From: Escherichia coli
Lineage (GTDB): Bacteria; Pseudomonadota; Gammaproteobacteria; Enterobacterales; Enterobacteriaceae
Strand: one strand, 5' to 3'
Length of the DNA: 64,000 nt
NCBI RefSeq assembly: GCF_030384885.1
Contig: NZ_CP128613.1
Shown: in pieces, positions 32,977 through 38,836 of the stretch
How the letters are laid out: each line of letters opens with the position of its first letter
Numbering within the stretch: position 1 is the first letter of the stretch
Notes under the pieces: generated by a model
What the model was told of the DNA's origin: nothing
Seen by the model: the letters and a program-made list of their open reading frames with translations, nothing else
Databases searched by the model: none
Program-made: the position numbers and the translations under genes

Positions 32977-34098
32977 ATGGTTGCTGAGTTGACCGCATTA
33001 CGCGATCAAATTGATGAAGTCGATAAAGCGCTGCTGAATTTATTAGCGAAGCGTCTGGAACTGGTTGCTGAAGTTGGCGAGGTGAAAAGCCGCTTTGGAC
33101 TGCCTATTTATGTTCCGGAGCGCGAGGCATCTATGTTGGCCTCGCGTCGTGCAGAGGCGGAAGCTCTGGGTGTACCGCCAGATCTGATTGAGGATGTTTT
33201 GCGTCGGGTGATGCGTGAATCTTACTCCAGTGAAAACGACAAAGGATTTAAAACACTTTGTCCGTCACTGCGTCCGGTGGTTATCGTCGGCGGTGGCGGT
33301 CAGATGGGACGCCTGTTCGAGAAGATGCTGACGCTCTCGGGTTATCAGGTGCGGATTCTGGAGCAACATGACTGGGATCGAGCGGCTGATATTGTTGCCG
33401 ATGCCGGAATGGTGATTGTTAGTGTGCCCATCCACGTTACTGAGCAAGTTATCGGCAAATTACCGCCTTTACCGAAAGATTGTATTCTGGTTGATCTGGC
33501 ATCAGTGAAAAATGGACCATTACAGGCCATGCTGGCGGCGCACGATGGCCCGGTGCTGGGGTTACACCCGATGTTCGGCCCGGACGGCGGTAGCCTGGCA
33601 AAGCAAGTTGTGGTCTGGTGTGATGGACGTAAGCCCGAAGCATACCAATGGTTTCTGGAGCAAATTCAGGTCTGGGGCGCTCGGTTGCATCGTATTAGCG
33701 CTGTCGAGCACGATCAGAATATGGCGTTTATTCAGGCACTGCGCCACTTTGCTACTTTTGCTTATGGGCTGCACCTGGCAGAAGAAAATGTTCAGCTTGA
33801 GCAACTTCTGGCGCTTTCTTCGCCGATTTACCGCCTTGAGCTGGCGATGGTTGGGCGACTGTTTGCCCAGGATCCGCAACTGTATGCCGACATTATTATG
33901 TCGTCAGAGCGTAATCTGGCGTTAATCAAACGTTACTATAAGCGTTTCGGCGAGGCGATTGAGTTGCTGGAGCAGGGCGATAAGCAGGCGTTTATTGATA
34001 GTTTCCGCAAGGTGGAGCACTGGTTCGGCGATTACGCACAGCGTTTTCAGCATGAAAGCCGTGTGTTATTGCGTCAGGCGAATGACAGTCGCCAGTAA
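32977..34098 (+). CDS. tyrA: Chorismate mutase / prephenate dehydrogenase (T-protein)
   Basis: 373 aa. Confidence 0.95.
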
Positions 34099-34140
34099 TC
34101 ATCTTGTGCCGGGTGGAATATTTCACCCGGCTCGATTTCA

Positions 34141-35301
34141 TTATGCCGGATCGACAGGCACTACATTCTCACTTGGGTAACAACCTAATACCTTCATCGA
34201 ACGGGTGATTTCCCCTAACTCTTTCAATGCTTTTTGCATTTCCGCTGATTCAAGATTGGCCTGAATATCCAGATAAAACATCTCTTCCCACGGATTACCG
34301 TGAATCGGGCGTGATTCCAGACGGGTCATAATCAGATTGTGGTTGCGCAGTACCAACAACGCTTCAACCAGTGCACCAGCTTGTTGTCCGGTCGCCATTA
34401 ACAACGTCGTTTTCGCCGGAACCTGGTCAGACACGTTAATGGCTTTACGTGCCAGCACCACAAATCGGGTGAAGTTTTGGCGCTGATTCGCTTCAATACG
34501 CTCGAGCACCTGCAAACCGTACAATGTGCCGCCTGCTTCGCTTCCCAGCGCAGCAACATGCGGTGATTTTGCCTGTGCAACCTTTTCCATTGCCGCAGAC
34601 GTACTTTCGGTATATTCAATCTTCCAGTGCGGATAACGATTAAGGAATTTACTGCATTGCTGGAATGGCTGCGGATGGCTGTAGACCGTGTTGATGTTGG
34701 ATAAATCAGTAGTGCCGGAAACCAGCAGGCAGTGGTCGATGGTCAGCGTCATTTCGCCAACAATCGACAAACTGGTATGTTGCAGTAAATCGTAAACGTC
34801 GTTTATGGCCCCGGAGCTGGTGTTTTCGATCGGTACTACTGCATAGTCGGCCTGGCCGGTTTCCACTTGATTAAAAATATCCGCAAATTTCGCACAACCA
34901 CTTTCAATAAATTGTTCGAAGTGGCGAGCCGCGTACTGACGAGCGGCAAGATGTGAATAGGAGCCTTTGGGGCCGAGAAAAGCAATGCGAGCAGAGTGAG
35001 GATTAATTTTATTGAGATGTTGCTGGAGCAGTGCCTGCTGAGTTAATACGGAATCTTCAATGATGAGCTGGAACAGGCGAGTAATGTAATGGGCGTCCAG
35101 ATGGTGCGCTTTACCGAGCGTAATTAATCTTTCCAGCAAATCGCGTTCACGATCAATATCACGTACCGGGCGATGCGAGAGCAGTTTGGCTTTTCCCACC
35201 TCGACGGCCAGTTCGCGTCGCTCTGCCAGTAATGCTAATAATTTTTCATCCAGCGCGCTGATTTTCTCTCGCAGCGCCAGTAACGGGTTTTCCGATGTCA
35301 T
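34141..35301 (-). CDS. pheA: Chorismate mutase / prephenate dehydratase (P-protein)
   Basis: 386 aa, [22 protein letters not shown]. Confidence 0.95.
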
Positions 35302-35319
35302 AGTGTTGCCTTTTTGTTA

Positions 35320-35399
35320 TCAATAAAAAAGGCCCCCCGATTTGGGAGGCCTTATTGTTCGTCTTCGCATTCTGTTTCACACGACGAAACGCCTCCCAT
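35320..35399 (-). promoter_or_regulatory. pheA attenuator (leader terminator/antiterminator)
   Basis: On the minus strand: ggcctcccaaatcggggggcc hairpin followed by a T run, between pheL and pheA. Confidence 0.8.
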
Positions 35400-35447
35400 T
35401 CAGGGGAAGGTAAAAAAGAATGCGAAGAAAAACGGTGTGTGTTTCAT
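35400..35447 (-). CDS. pheL: pheA leader peptide
   Basis: Translates to MKHTPFFFAFFFTFP followed by a stop; Phe-rich leader. Confidence 0.85.
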   Translation of the reverse strand: MKHTPFFFAFFFTFP

Positions 35448-35550
35448 GTTTGTTTCCTTAAGTGACTTTAGTACAGTACCCGTACTGTTTTCACGCTGTC
35501 AACAAAAAACGCGCCCGAAGGCGCGTTGGCGATACACTCAATATAAAGGA

Positions 35551-35946
<396 letters not shown>

Positions 35947-36138
35947 TCAAAATGTGTGATGGAAATCTCATAATTTTGTCACTTTTTGTCAACGAATCTT
36001 TTTTGTGAGAAATCGCAGGAAGAGGTGTTTTTTTACTTGAGGAATATCTCAAAGCGAGCCATATTTGATGAGATCGATAGTGACTAAATCGCTTCAGTTT
36101 CACAACTAACAGAATAAAAAAACGGCAGCTCAAGGCTG

Positions 36139-36947
36139 TAATGCCAGTCAGTTAAGCAACTGACTGGCTCTTTTTCGGGGCTGTGGGGTATTTCCAGGGC
36201 CTCTCCTTTACCACTCTCGGGAAGGCCCTTTCCCTTCTTGTCGGTAATTTCACTGGTTGTCCCATACTTGCAAGATCGCGCATCAGCTCCGGTATACGTC
36301 CCGGTGAAGCGCATGGCGTCCGTCATCGACGTCAGCAGATGGCTGGTCAGTTCCATCTGGCAGACCATTTTGACCTGCGGGTAGAGCGCCGGGTTCTCGG
36401 CATGTGTCTGGCGGGGGAAGGCTGCATCGTTCTCTGGTGTATCCGGTGTGCGCCAGAACACACCATCGATGGCCAGCAGGGTCAGGCCGCACCAGTGCGG
36501 ATGCAGCGTGGCGTTATGCCAGAGCTGCGCTGTTTTCGTGAACACGCGTCGGACAGCCTCACTTCCCAGGCGCTGGCGGGCCTGAATAACGGCACTGGGG
36601 GCAACGAAGGGGCGATTGCCCGGCAGCATGATGTCCAGGCGATTCACAATCTGGTGAAGAGGTTCTTTACGCTCAAGCGCCATGCCAACAATACACCAGA
36701 CCATCATTTCGAGGGGAAGACGGCGCTTGCGTAGCGTTACAGTACCTGATTCGGCAAGGCAACGAGAGATGAGTTCGGGGTCGAGGTAATCCCCCAGAGA
36801 AGTCAGTGGGTTACGCAGAGAATCGTAACGGGATACCAAATCAAGGGCCTGTCCAATGAGCATAAAAAAATCCGGAAACGAGTGAGCGTTTCCGGATTCT
36901 TACACAGGCACTGGATCGGTCAACTGATCCTTAACTGATCGGCATTA
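36139..36947 (-). mobile_element. IS4 copy with internal deletion (non-autonomous), inserted in the bamD terminator
   Basis: Imperfect terminal inverted repeats taatgcc(a/g)(g/a)tcagttaag at both ends; flanked by identical 13-bp direct repeats cagctcaaggctg (36126-36138 and 36948-36960). The internal ORF (from 36863, minus strand) starts MLIGQALDLVSRYDSLRNPLTSLGDYLD..., which I recall as the IS4 transposase N-terminus, but the element is ~0.8 kb and the ORF loses frame after ~200 aa. Confidence 0.75.
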
Positions 36948-36983
36948 CAGCTCAAGGCTGCCGTTTTGTGTTTCAGGTTTCTG

Positions 36984-37721
36984 TTATGTATTGCTGCTGT
37001 TTGCGGCGATGATTTTCGCTACTTTTTCAGCTTGCGCATTCATCTGCATCTGACGGTATGCATTTTCCATCAGCGGCAGCGCATCACGCGTAGCCTGGGT
37101 ATCCGGGTAGTCGCGCAACATGCCTTCTACGCGGTTAACGACGGCAACCCATGCGCCACGTTCTGTATAGTACTCGGCAACGGAGTATTCATATTTCGCC
37201 AGACGATCTTTCAGGAATACCAGACGTTTGGTGGCATCGGTGGTGTACTGACTGTTCGGATAGCCGCGCACCAGTTTGGAAAAGTCACTAAACGCAGCTC
37301 GTGCATGTTGAGGATCGCGATCGCTACGATCGACGCCAAAGAACCCTTGCAGTGCACTGTCATCGAGCGCCATATTGGTCAGGCCACGCATGTACATGAC
37401 ATAATCGATATTCGGATGGGTCGGGTTAAGGCGAATAAAACGATCGATGGCAGCCTGTGCTAACGGCAAATCGGCGTTTTTATAGTAGGCGTAGATGAGA
37501 TCCAGCTGCACCTGCTGCGAATACGGACCAAACGGATAGCGATTATCTAACGCTTCCAGTTGCGTTATTGCCTGTCTCCAGTTACCGTCCTGCAGCTTTT
37601 GTTGTGCAGTCGCGTAAATTTCATTTGGCGGATTATCAGGTACTTCTTCCTTTGACCCCGAGCAACCCGCCAAAAACAGGCTTAGTGTGGCGGCTGCCAC
37701 CAGATATTTCATGCGCGTCAT
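36984..37721 (-). CDS. bamD: Outer membrane protein assembly factor BamD (YfiO)
   Basis: 245 aa, lipobox LAGCS, TPR-like. Confidence 0.95.
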
Positions 37722-37855
37722 GACGTTTTGACTTTCCTCAAAATGTAATACGGGAGATTCTCTGTTCCTGCTCCCGGTTAAGACCAGCTACAATAGCACA
37801 CTATATTAAACGGCAAAGCCGTAAAACCCCAACGATAAACGAAGAAGCAGTATAT

Positions 37856-38836
37856 ATGGCACAACGAGTACAGCTCACTGCAACGGTGTCCGAAAACCAA
37901 CTCGGTCAACGCTTAGATCAGGCTTTGGCCGAAATGTTCCCGGATTATTCACGTTCGCGAATAAAAGAATGGATCCTCGACCAGCGCGTGCTGGTTAACG
38001 GCAAAGTTTGCGATAAGCCGAAAGAAAAAGTATTGGGTGGCGAGCAGGTGGCCATCAACGCTGAGATTGAAGAAGAAGCGCGTTTTGAACCGCAGGATAT
38101 CCCGCTGGATATCGTCTATGAAGATGAAGATATCATCGTCATTAATAAACCACGCGACCTGGTGGTACATCCTGGCGCGGGTAACCCGGATGGCACGGTA
38201 CTGAATGCGTTGCTTCATTATTATCCGCCCATTGCCGATGTACCGCGTGCGGGCATCGTCCATCGTCTGGATAAAGACACCACCGGCCTGATGGTTGTGG
38301 CAAAAACCGTTCCGGCTCAGACGCGTTTAGTCGAATCTTTGCAACGGCGTGAAATTACTCGTGAGTATGAAGCGGTGGCAATTGGTCATATGACCGCTGG
38401 CGGTACAGTAGATGAACCAATCAGCCGCCACCCGACCAAACGTACTCACATGGCGGTGCATCCGATGGGTAAACCGGCGGTCACTCACTATCGCATCATG
38501 GAACACTTCCGTGTGCACACGCGTCTGCGGTTGCGTCTGGAAACCGGACGTACGCACCAGATCCGCGTGCATATGGCCCATATCACTCATCCGCTGGTGG
38601 GCGATCCGGTTTATGGCGGCCGTCCGCGTCCGCCAAAAGGTGCTTCGGAAGCGTTTATCTCCACGCTGCGTAAGTTTGACCGCCAGGCGCTTCATGCAAC
38701 CATGCTGCGTCTTTATCACCCGATCTCCGGCATCGAAATGGAATGGCATGCGCCTATTCCACAAGATATGGTGGAGCTGATTGAGGTGATGCGCGCCGAT
38801 TTCGAAGAGCATAAGGATGAAGTGGACTGGTTATGA
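37856..38836 (+). CDS. rluD: 23S rRNA pseudouridine synthase RluD
   Basis: 326 aa, S4 domain plus RluA-family catalytic motif HRLDKDTTG. Confidence 0.95.
   Translation: MAQRVQLTATVSENQLGQRLDQALAEMFPDYSRSRIKEWILDQRVLVNGKVCDKPKEKVLGGEQVAINAEIEEEARFEPQDIPLDIVYEDEDIIVINKPRDLVVHPGAGNPDGTVLNALLHYYPPIADVPRAGIVHRLDKDTTGLMVVAKTVPAQTRLVESLQRREITREYEAVAIGHMTAGGTVDEPISRHPTKRTHMAVHPMGKPAVTHYRIMEHFRVHTRLRLRLETGRTHQIRVHMAHITHPLVGDPVYGGRPRPPKGASEAFISTLRKFDRQALHATMLRLYHPISGIEMEWHAPIPQDMVELIEVMRADFEEHKDEVDWL

What the first reader, a model, noticed from the sequence alone, without database searches (positions are those of the whole stretch)
36111..36975. Internally deleted IS4 copy inserted in the bamD terminator, with intact 13-bp target-site duplication
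Identical 13-bp direct repeats (cagctcaaggctg) flank an ~0.8 kb element with IS4-like ends and a truncated IS4-like transposase ORF. Removing the element and one repeat copy rebuilds a hairpin plus T-tract (aaaaaaacggcagc-tcaagg-gctgccgtttt), apparently the rho-independent terminator downstream of bamD, so the insertion splits that terminator. Within the ORF, the sequence HLLTSMTDAMRF follows ELTSHLLT directly; this is consistent with a deletion between two short repeats, but only if full-length IS4 has the sequence I recall, which I could not check. The insertion could alter bamD 3' end formation or read-through toward raiA.
Basis: partly seen in the sequence, partly recalled or inferred. Interest (0 to 1): 0.45.

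Follow-up and report, generated by a model that had tools for sequence, protein, structure and literature searches.

The report
Dead IS4 copy splitting bamD terminator
This is an ordinary, dead remnant of the well-known E. coli insertion sequence IS4, sitting in the transcription terminator after bamD, which is one of IS4's preferred landing sites.

Summary
Window 36139-36947 (809 bp) is a copy of E. coli IS4. Both 18-bp ends are intact, and it is flanked by a perfect 13-bp target duplication, CAGCTCAAGGCTG, at 36126-36138 and 36948-36960.

- **Terminator:** removing the element and one repeat rebuilds the bamD terminator, an 11-bp stem plus U7 at -17.7 kcal/mol. That exact empty sequence occurs in 1003 complete E. 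coli genomes.
- **Deletions:** One is 336 bp, in frame, between 14-bp repeats. The other is 281 bp, frameshifting, at GCGCTTC[A/C]CCGG. Together they remove two of the three catalytic residues, so the copy cannot move by itself.
- **Spread:** I found no second copy of it anywhere, and RefSeq already annotates it as a frameshifted IS4 transposase pseudogene.
- **Why here:** IS4 occupies this same terminator in 330 genomes in this orientation and 70 in the other, out of 5426. IS4 generally lands in sites built as A-tract, hairpin, T-tract.
- **Effect on bamD:** a strong hairpin plus U7 carried by IS4, just inside its bamD-side end, probably replaces the lost terminator. This is inferred, not shown.

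Verdict: real, correctly read, ordinary and of low interest. A modest side observation is that the target's geometry sets the duplication length.

The parts
36139..36947 (-). Defective IS4 copy, 809 bp. The transposase sense is on the - strand, the same direction as bamD and raiA.
   Evidence: Three collinear blocks match IS4 positions 1-618, 941-983 and 1253-1426 in standard orientation, at 97.7-99.0% identity. RefSeq annotates the same stretch in strain 2013C-4282 as 'IS4 family transposase, frameshifted'.
36126..36138 (.). Target-site duplication, raiA-side copy (CAGCTCAAGGCTG)
   Evidence: It abuts the IS4 end exactly.
36948..36960 (.). Target-site duplication, bamD-side copy (CAGCTCAAGGCTG)
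   Evidence: Empty alleles carry a single copy.
36930..36947 (-). IS4 left terminal inverted repeat (IRL, transposase-start end), TAATGCCGATCAGTTAAG
   Evidence: identical to full-length IS4 copies.
36139..36156 (+). IS4 right terminal inverted repeat (IRR), TAATGCCAGTCAGTTAAG
36330..36343 (-). Junction of the 336-bp in-frame deletion (IS4 positions 619-954, codons 179-290). One surviving copy of the 14-bp repeat GCCATCTGCTGACG.
   Evidence: This is the longest exact direct repeat in IS4. The junction occurs in 22 of 5426 genomes, once per genome. The three copies whose context was examined are at the bamD locus.
36301..36312 (-). Junction of the 281-bp frameshifting deletion (IS4 positions 972-1252), at the imperfect repeat GCGCTTC[C/A]CCGG
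   Evidence: The junction occurs in 51 genomes. In 18 it lies next to the 336-bp junction. In the other 33 it lies elsewhere, and the tdk-adhE IS4 copy holds it in the two strains examined.
36084..36863 (-). Remnant ORF of 259 aa: IS4 transposase residues 1-178 and 291-295, then an out-of-frame tail that reads out through the IS end and the duplication into flanking DNA
   Evidence: Pfam finds Nterm_IS4 (aa 18-109, E 1.8e-33) but no longer DDE_Tnp_1; the intact protein has both. The MDKG and WEIE motifs lie in the deleted parts.
36152..36283 (-). Stranded original-frame C-terminus of the transposase (43 codons, ...PWKYPTAPKKSQSVA)
   Evidence: compare the full protein.
36866..36901 (-). IS4-borne hairpin (15-bp stem) followed by U7, just upstream of the transposase ATG at 36863. 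It is the likely substitute terminator for bamD transcripts.
   Evidence: I2; -22.6 kcal/mol, z -5.1. The general role of IS 5' terminators is described in PMC2965389. Its function here is inferred.
36896..36923 (-). Promoter-like site (TTGACC, 16 nt, TG, AAGAAT) that could drive the transposase. A start site about 7 nt downstream would fall inside the 5' arm of the hairpin.
   Evidence: This is a consensus match only: 1 found against 1.8 expected by chance.
36143..36168 (+). Hairpin at the IRR end (11-bp stem) followed by TCTTTTT on the + strand; terminator-like for transcription entering from the raiA side
   Evidence: (I4).
36961..36983 (-). Spacer between the bamD stop codon and the insertion. 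It holds the outer 5' arm of the split terminator (AAAACGG in the bamD sense).
   Evidence: The bamD-side junction no longer folds (z 0.04).
36113..36125 (-). raiA-side remainder of the split terminator (CCG plus U7 in the bamD sense)
   Evidence: Only a 4-bp CAGC/GCUG stem is left in front of the U-run.
36984..37721 (-). bamD, whose terminator is interrupted
35551..35892 (-). raiA, the next gene downstream; its start lies 247 bp beyond the IS end

Best explanation
A full-length IS4 transposed into the stem-loop of the rho-independent terminator just after bamD and duplicated the 13 bp at the hairpin apex. IS4 prefers sites built as an A-tract, a GC-rich hairpin and a T-tract, which is why it landed there.

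The copy then decayed in place through two deletions between short direct repeats. The 336-bp in-frame deletion most likely came first and the 281-bp frameshifting deletion second. These removed the second Asp and the Glu of the DDE catalytic triad, so the copy cannot transpose on its own. Both ends are intact, so it could in principle be moved by another IS4. The closest complete genome has no other IS4, and no second copy of this derivative was found in any genome, so it is an immobile fossil.

The bamD terminator is destroyed on the bamD side. Transcripts running into the element meet an IS4-borne hairpin plus U-run whose 3' end lies about 80 nt inside it, and this probably serves as the replacement terminator. 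raiA keeps its own upstream region.

Shown: identity, boundaries, deletions, distribution and target preference. Inferred: the order of the deletions, slippage as their mechanism, and all transcriptional consequences.
For: - **Identity and boundaries:**
- **Two deletions at repeats:**. The 14-bp repeat is the longest exact direct repeat in IS4.
- **Loss of the catalytic domain:**
- **Order of deletions:** the E2348/69 bamD copy has only the 336-bp deletion (L007). It shares variants 89T, 1310C and 1311A with the window copy. 22 genomes carry that junction; 18 of them also carry the 281-bp junction next to it.
- **No spread:** each junction occurs once per genome. The best-matching genome, 2013C-4282, is 100% identical over 1501 bp and holds one IS4-related place.
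- **Empty site:** K-12; 4670 genomes are contiguous across the site, 1003 of them identical to the rebuilt 90-mer.
- **Hot spot:** 330 genomes carry IS4 at this site in this orientation, mostly full length, and 70 carry it in the opposite orientation.
- **Target preference:** 22 site alleles, about 18 genomic sites, mostly A-tract, hairpin, T-tract. PMC2266710 notes 10-13 bp repeats and striking target-arm conservation for the IS4 subgroup.
- **Terminators:**; PMC2965389 on IS 5' terminators.
Against: Nothing contradicts the structural account. The weak points are as follows.
- The same 281-bp junction also occurs in IS4 copies at the tdk-adhE site. It may therefore have reached the bamD copy by gene conversion rather than by a fresh slippage event. 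The SNPs neither prove nor exclude this.
- The simple terminator scan did not list the IS4 5' hairpin on the - strand, probably because the A/U runs are counted into the stem. Its terminator function is not demonstrated.
- The promoter-like match is at chance level.
- No transcript data were available.
Confidence: 0.93

Rival explanations
1. The 809-bp element is a MITE-like, non-autonomous IS4 derivative that active IS4 copies mobilise in trans, so it is a spreading element rather than a fossil.
For: Both 18-bp terminal repeats are intact. Some genomes that carry it also hold many IS4 copies, for example RMDEC465 with 31 places.
Against: The 336-bp junction occurs once per genome in just 22 genomes. 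The three copies whose context was examined are all at the bamD locus. Even RMDEC465 has a single copy of each junction. The closest genome has no other IS4.
Confidence: 0.03
2. There is a single internal deletion between the two HLLT-coding repeats, and the rest of the element is intact.
For: The 336-bp deletion between GCCATCTGCTGACG repeats is real.
Against: The element is 617 bp short, not 336. A second gap at IS4 positions 972-1252 (281 bp) shifts the frame. The sequence after ...DAMRF is out of frame, and the true C-terminus survives as a separate 43-codon ORF.
Confidence: 0.01
3. The 281-bp deletion in the bamD copy did not arise there. It was copied in by recombination or gene conversion from an IS4 copy at tdk-adhE that already carried it.
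For: An identical junction is present at tdk-adhE in both strains examined there, and 33 genomes carry it away from the bamD-copy junction. E2348/69 carries the 336-bp deletion at bamD and the 281-bp deletion at tdk-adhE, which are the two ingredients. The exact repeat at this junction is only 7 bp (11 of 12 overall), a weak substrate for recurrent slippage.
Against: Genomes with the doubly deleted copy have no second copy of this junction, and 2013C-4282 has no other IS4. At position 1310, just past the junction, the window copy matches the bamD lineage (C) and not the tdk-adhE copies (T). Any conversion tract would have to be shorter than about 350 bp.
Confidence: 0.3
4. The insertion is functionally important. 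By breaking the bamD terminator it changes bamD mRNA 3' ends or stability, or drives read-through or IS-derived transcription into raiA, and is kept for that reason.
For: The native terminator no longer folds on the bamD side (z 0.04). About 7% of complete E. coli genomes tolerate IS4 at this spot. On the raiA side only a weak 4-bp stem precedes the U-run.
Against: IS4 brings a stronger hairpin plus U7 of its own. Insertions occur in both orientations, which argues against a requirement for any oriented signal. Recurrence is explained by target preference. The raiA upstream 247 bp are untouched. There are no expression data.
Confidence: 0.1

Closest known systems
IS4 of Escherichia coli (ISfinder IS4 family, IS4 subgroup; K-12 insG copy, 1426 bp)
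   Same: The retained 809 bp are 97.7-99.0% identical to IS4. The 18-bp ends are the same. The 13-bp duplication falls within the 10-13 bp range given for the subgroup (PMC2266710). The Nterm_IS4 domain is the same.
   Different: It lacks 617 bp in two blocks, has no detectable DDE domain, is frameshifted and is not autonomous.
IS4 remnant at bamD-raiA in EPEC E2348/69 (NC_011601.1, pseudogene E2348C_RS15405)
   Same: Same site, orientation and 13-bp duplication, the same 336-bp deletion, and shared variants 89T, 1310C and 1311A.
   Different: The E2348/69 copy is 1089 bp and still has the 281-bp segment, so it looks like the one-deletion intermediate.
Full-length IS4 in the bamD terminator of other E. 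coli strains (for example ST95-32 and 2016C-3878; opposite orientation in SCU-387 and S43)
   Same: Exactly the same cut positions in the terminator hairpin.
   Different: These are intact 1426-bp copies. The duplication is 14 bp where the target allele has GGG, and 70 genomes have the other orientation.
Palindrome-targeting insertion sequences (IS1397/ISKpn1 and IS621 in REP/BIME elements; reviewed in PMC1525189)
   Same: Preference for extragenic palindromic DNA, so insertions rarely disrupt coding sequence.
   Different: The IS4 targets surveyed here are individual hairpins flanked by A- and T-tracts (terminator-like), not one repeated REP family.

Membership tests
IS4 (E. coli IS4, IS4 family / IS4 subgroup) | Nucleotide identity to reference IS4 along the retained sequence | tested here: met
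   99.0% (618 bp), 97.7% (43 bp) and 98.3% (174 bp) against a 1426-bp IS4. K-12 IS4 carries the same repeats at both deletion sites.
IS4 (E. coli IS4, IS4 family / IS4 subgroup) | 18-bp terminal inverted repeats TAATGCC(RR)TCAGTTAAG at both ends | tested here: met
   36139-36156 (+) and 36930-36947 (-), the only two matches in the window.
IS4 (E. coli IS4, IS4 family / IS4 subgroup) | Target-site duplication of about 10-13 bp | tested here: met
   A perfect 13-bp duplication. The range is taken from PMC2266710 Table 1.
IS4 (E. coli IS4, IS4 family / IS4 subgroup) | Single ORF encoding a DDE transposase (Nterm_IS4 plus DDE_Tnp_1, with the YREK motif) | tested here: not met
   Only Nterm_IS4 is detected. 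DDE_Tnp_1 is lost, and MDKG (D), WEIE (E) and YREIK lie in the deleted segments. It is therefore a degraded IS4 copy, not a functional member.
IS4 (E. coli IS4, IS4 family / IS4 subgroup) | Full length of about 1426 bp | tested here: not met
   809 bp, with deletions of 336 and 281 bp.
Rho-independent (intrinsic) terminator of bamD | GC-rich hairpin immediately followed by a U-run, just downstream of the stop codon, in the rebuilt empty site | tested here: met
   An 11-bp stem, a 5-nt loop and U7; -17.7 kcal/mol, z -5.2. The hairpin starts about 17 nt after the bamD stop. K-12 has the same structure with a 6-nt loop.
Rho-independent (intrinsic) terminator of bamD | Demonstrated transcript 3' end at the U-run | not testable with these tools
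   No transcript data were available.
MITE / non-autonomous mobilisable IS derivative | Multiple dispersed copies, each with its own target duplication | tested here: not met
   Junction-specific 40-mers occur once per genome. The examined copies of the 336-bp junction are at bamD.

The most novel reading that the evidence does not exclude
The target, not the enzyme, fixes where IS4 cuts. IS4 appears to read the A-tract and T-tract arms of terminator-like hairpins and to cut 3 (occasionally 4) bp inside each arm. The duplication length (11-14 bp) then simply equals the arm spacing minus about 6.

The bamD terminator gives a natural experiment. The GG allele yields 13-bp duplications and the GGG allele 14-bp ones, in both orientations. 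This would mean each end of the transposition complex is positioned independently by a half-site. Alternatively, the target may be recognised as an extruded hairpin or cruciform, where the two cut points keep a constant geometry. It would also make intrinsic terminators a safe-harbour class for IS4.

Part of this is old knowledge: from memory, an AAA-N20-TTT consensus from the 1980s, and the 'spectacular' target-arm conservation noted in PMC2266710.
Probability: 0.5. Interest if true: 0.4.

Novelty: already known. Interest (0 to 1): 0.13.

Why it matters
It matters little. The element is a decayed copy of a textbook insertion sequence, already flagged as a pseudogene in RefSeq and present in 18 public genomes in this exact form.

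Its uses are practical:
- It is a lineage marker. The insertion, the two deletions and, in some strains, a nested IS200 form an ordered series of states.
- It is a clean worked example of IS decay by deletion between short repeats.
- It is a reminder that terminator annotation after bamD differs between strains.

The broader point is that IS4 repeatedly hits the same terminator in both orientations, with a duplication length set by the hairpin. That could interest transposition specialists, but it extends known IS4 target specificity rather than overturning anything.

Tried and rejected
- **Different IS family:** rejected. The element is about 98-99% identical to IS4.
- **Pre-existing repeat:** rejected. 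Empty alleles have one copy of the 13/14-mer.
- **Single deletion:** rejected.
- **Spreading MITE:** rejected.
- **Literature for the AAA-N20-TTT consensus I recalled:** the string was not found. The Mahillon and Chandler review is not held. A search for Mayaux, IS4 and attenuator gave nothing direct. That consensus therefore rests on memory only.
- **Literature for IS4 at bamD/raiA, or IS4 and rho-independent terminators:** nothing relevant.
- **Redundant look-up:** the 442-aa version of the ST95 transposase turned out to be identical to K-12 InsG and returned the same loci.
- **Single-site allele:** the look-up with the tdk-adhE transposase allele returned only that one site.
- **Rfam scan of 34000-38000:** found only the Phe leader.
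- **Gene conversion or fresh slippage for the 281-bp deletion:** the SNP table could not decide.
- **Flank comparison:** it did not resolve whether the insertion shared with E2348/69 is vertical or recombinational.

Full report
**What is there.**
The region lies in the E. coli pheA-raiA-bamD-rluD neighbourhood. pheA, raiA and bamD are on the - strand, so bamD (36984-37721) is transcribed towards raiA (35551-35892). Between them, CAGCTCAAGGCTG occurs twice, at 36126-36138 and 36948-36960. The two copies abut the only two matches in the window to the IS4 terminal repeat, at 36139-36156 (+) and 36930-36947 (-), against 0.01 expected by chance. The element is therefore 36139-36947, 809 bp, with the transposase sense on the - strand. 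The window is 100% identical over 1501 bp to E. coli 2013C-4282. RefSeq annotates this stretch there as 'IS4 family transposase, frameshifted'.

**Comparison with full-length IS4.**
I aligned the element to a 1426-bp IS4 (L002:301-1726). It matches in three collinear blocks: IS4 positions 1-618, 941-983 and 1253-1426 in transposase orientation, at 99.0, 97.7 and 98.3% identity. So there are two internal deletions, not one.
- **The 336-bp deletion** (positions 619-954, codons 179-290, in frame) lies between two copies of GCCATCTGCTGACG. This is the longest exact direct repeat in IS4.
- **The 281-bp deletion** (positions 972-1252) lies at the imperfect repeat GCGCTTC[C/A]CCGG and shifts the frame. 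As a result the ORF continues as ...RFTGTYTGADARS... and reads out through the IS end into the flank, stopping at 36084. The true C-terminus survives as a separate 43-codon ORF at 36152-36283.

Pfam still finds the Nterm_IS4 domain (E 1.8e-33) but no DDE domain. The MDKG and WEIE/YREIK motifs fall in the deleted parts. The copy cannot encode an active transposase.

**The target.**
Removing the element and one repeat gives, in the bamD sense, AAAACGGCAGC-CUUGA-GCUGCCGUUUUUUU, starting about 17 nt after the bamD stop codon. It folds at -17.7 kcal/mol (z -5.2), and none of 200 shuffles does as well. K-12 has this site uninterrupted, with one extra base in the loop (CAGCTCAAGGGCTG). Among 5426 complete E. 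coli genomes, 4670 have a contiguous empty site, and 1003 are identical to the rebuilt 90-mer with the 13-mer allele. The 13-mer is therefore a true duplication made on insertion.

**History of the copy.**
IS4 occupies this site in this orientation in 330 genomes, mostly as intact 1426-bp copies.
- The 336-bp junction occurs in 22 genomes, once each.
- The 281-bp junction occurs in 51 genomes, once each.
- In 18 genomes the two junctions lie 30 bp apart. This is the form seen in the window.
- The four E2348/69 records have only the 336-bp deletion at bamD (1089-bp copy, L007). They carry the 281-bp deletion in a different IS4 copy between tdk and adhE (L008; also L009 in another strain).

The window copy shares three variants with the E2348/69 bamD copy (89T, 1310C, 1311A). 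The likely order is insertion, then the 336-bp deletion, then the 281-bp deletion. The second deletion could have arisen again by slippage, or it could have been copied from a tdk-adhE copy. The SNPs do not decide between these. No second copy of the doubly deleted element was found in any genome, and 2013C-4282 holds no other IS4. It is a fossil, not a spreading MITE.

**Why this site.**
IS4 also sits in the same terminator in the opposite orientation in 70 genomes, with identical cut positions. The site has therefore been hit repeatedly.

I collected 22 site alleles, about 18 genomic sites, from IS4 copies elsewhere.
- Duplications are 11-14 bp.
- The flank is an A-run ending 3 bp (12 of 22) or 4 bp (5 of 22) before the duplication.
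- A T-run starts 3 bp after it in 17 of 22.
- About two thirds of the rebuilt sites fold as strong hairpins (z of -2.8 or lower in 11 of the first 16 sites).
- In the 17 alleles with clear tracts, duplication length follows tract spacing: spacing 18 gives 11-12 bp, 19 gives 12-13, and 20 gives 12-14.
- At the bamD terminator itself, the GG allele gives 13 bp (window, L006, L045) and the GGG allele 14 bp (L005, L046).

This fits the review statement that IS4-subgroup elements make 10-13 bp repeats and show striking conservation in the target arms (PMC2266710). It also fits an AAA-N20-TTT consensus that I recall from 1980s work but could not retrieve.

**Consequences for transcription (inferred).**
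On the bamD side the junction no longer forms a stable hairpin (z 0.04), so the native terminator is lost. The IS4 end next to bamD carries a 15-bp-stem hairpin followed by U7 at 36866-36901 on the - strand (-22.6 kcal/mol, z -5.1). It spans 47-82 nt from that end and sits just before the transposase ATG. Terminators of this kind upstream of transposase genes are described as shields against outside transcription (PMC2965389). Here it would end bamD transcripts about 80 nt inside the element. A promoter-like site at 36896-36923 would start transcripts inside the 5' arm of the hairpin, but that match is no better than chance. On the raiA side only a 4-bp stem precedes the U-run. The 247 bp upstream of raiA are unchanged. 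None of this was tested with transcript data.

**Verdict.**
The object is a known kind of thing, already annotated, and of low interest. The target-set duplication length and the recurrent use of the bamD terminator are the only points that go slightly beyond routine.

Noticed in passing
Window 36113-36138 and 36948-36967; loci L005, L006, L045, L046 (bamD terminator); L002, L025, L035 (tdk-adhE); L017, L019, L022, L029, L030, L033, L034, L037, L038, L040 and others: IS4 insertion sites share a common architecture: an A-run, 3-4 nt, a duplication of 11-14 bp, 3 nt, then a T-run. Most are strong hairpins that resemble bidirectional terminators. Duplication length tracks the spacing of the A- and T-runs. 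At the bamD terminator the GG allele gives 13 bp and the GGG allele 14 bp, in both orientations.
   Followed up: partly
L003:2501-4021 (strain Z0117EC0005; also E500002, 100248, AST85 and others): In one lineage the same doubly deleted IS4 remnant carries a 712-bp IS200 insertion. It sits right after the U-run of the IS4 5' hairpin (IS4 positions 81-84), just before the transposase ATG. This makes IS200 nested in IS4 nested in the bamD terminator. That lineage also has a divergent bamD-side flank (97.5% identity) and a GGG right-hand repeat copy.
   Followed up: partly
L008 and L009 (tdk-adhE intergenic region, E2348/69 and RM14723): A second IS4 hot spot lies in the hairpin between tdk and adhE (12-bp duplication CCCCAGAAGGGG, occupied in both orientations). 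In both strains examined that copy carries exactly the same 281-bp deletion junction as the bamD remnant, and 33 genomes in all carry the junction away from the bamD copy. This is either recurrent slippage or gene conversion.
   Followed up: partly
L031 and L032 (GCA_052122925.1, CM125673.1, around 1.88 and 1.90 Mb): Two full-length IS4 copies lack matching duplications, but their flanks pair crosswise (…GCCGTAATGTG / CGCCGTAATGTG… and …GGCACATTGTCG / CGGCACATTGTCG…). This indicates an inversion by recombination between the two copies.
   Followed up: no
Window 36084-36138: The frameshifted remnant ORF does not stop inside the element. It reads through the IS4 end and the target duplication and ends 55 bp into the flank at 36084, so any product would have a chimeric tail.
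   Followed up: no
L007, L008, L009: IS4 positions 8-9: In the E2348/69 and RM14723 copies the left terminal repeat reads TAATGCCAGTCAG, the right-end version, instead of TAATGCCGATCAG. The two ends are therefore more alike than in standard IS4.
   Followed up: no
Window 35323-35448 (-): The Phe leader (Rfam RF01859, 132 bits) lies upstream of pheA, as expected for this locus. K-12 also annotates the sRNA RaiZ at the raiA 3' end. Both are ordinary context.
   Followed up: no
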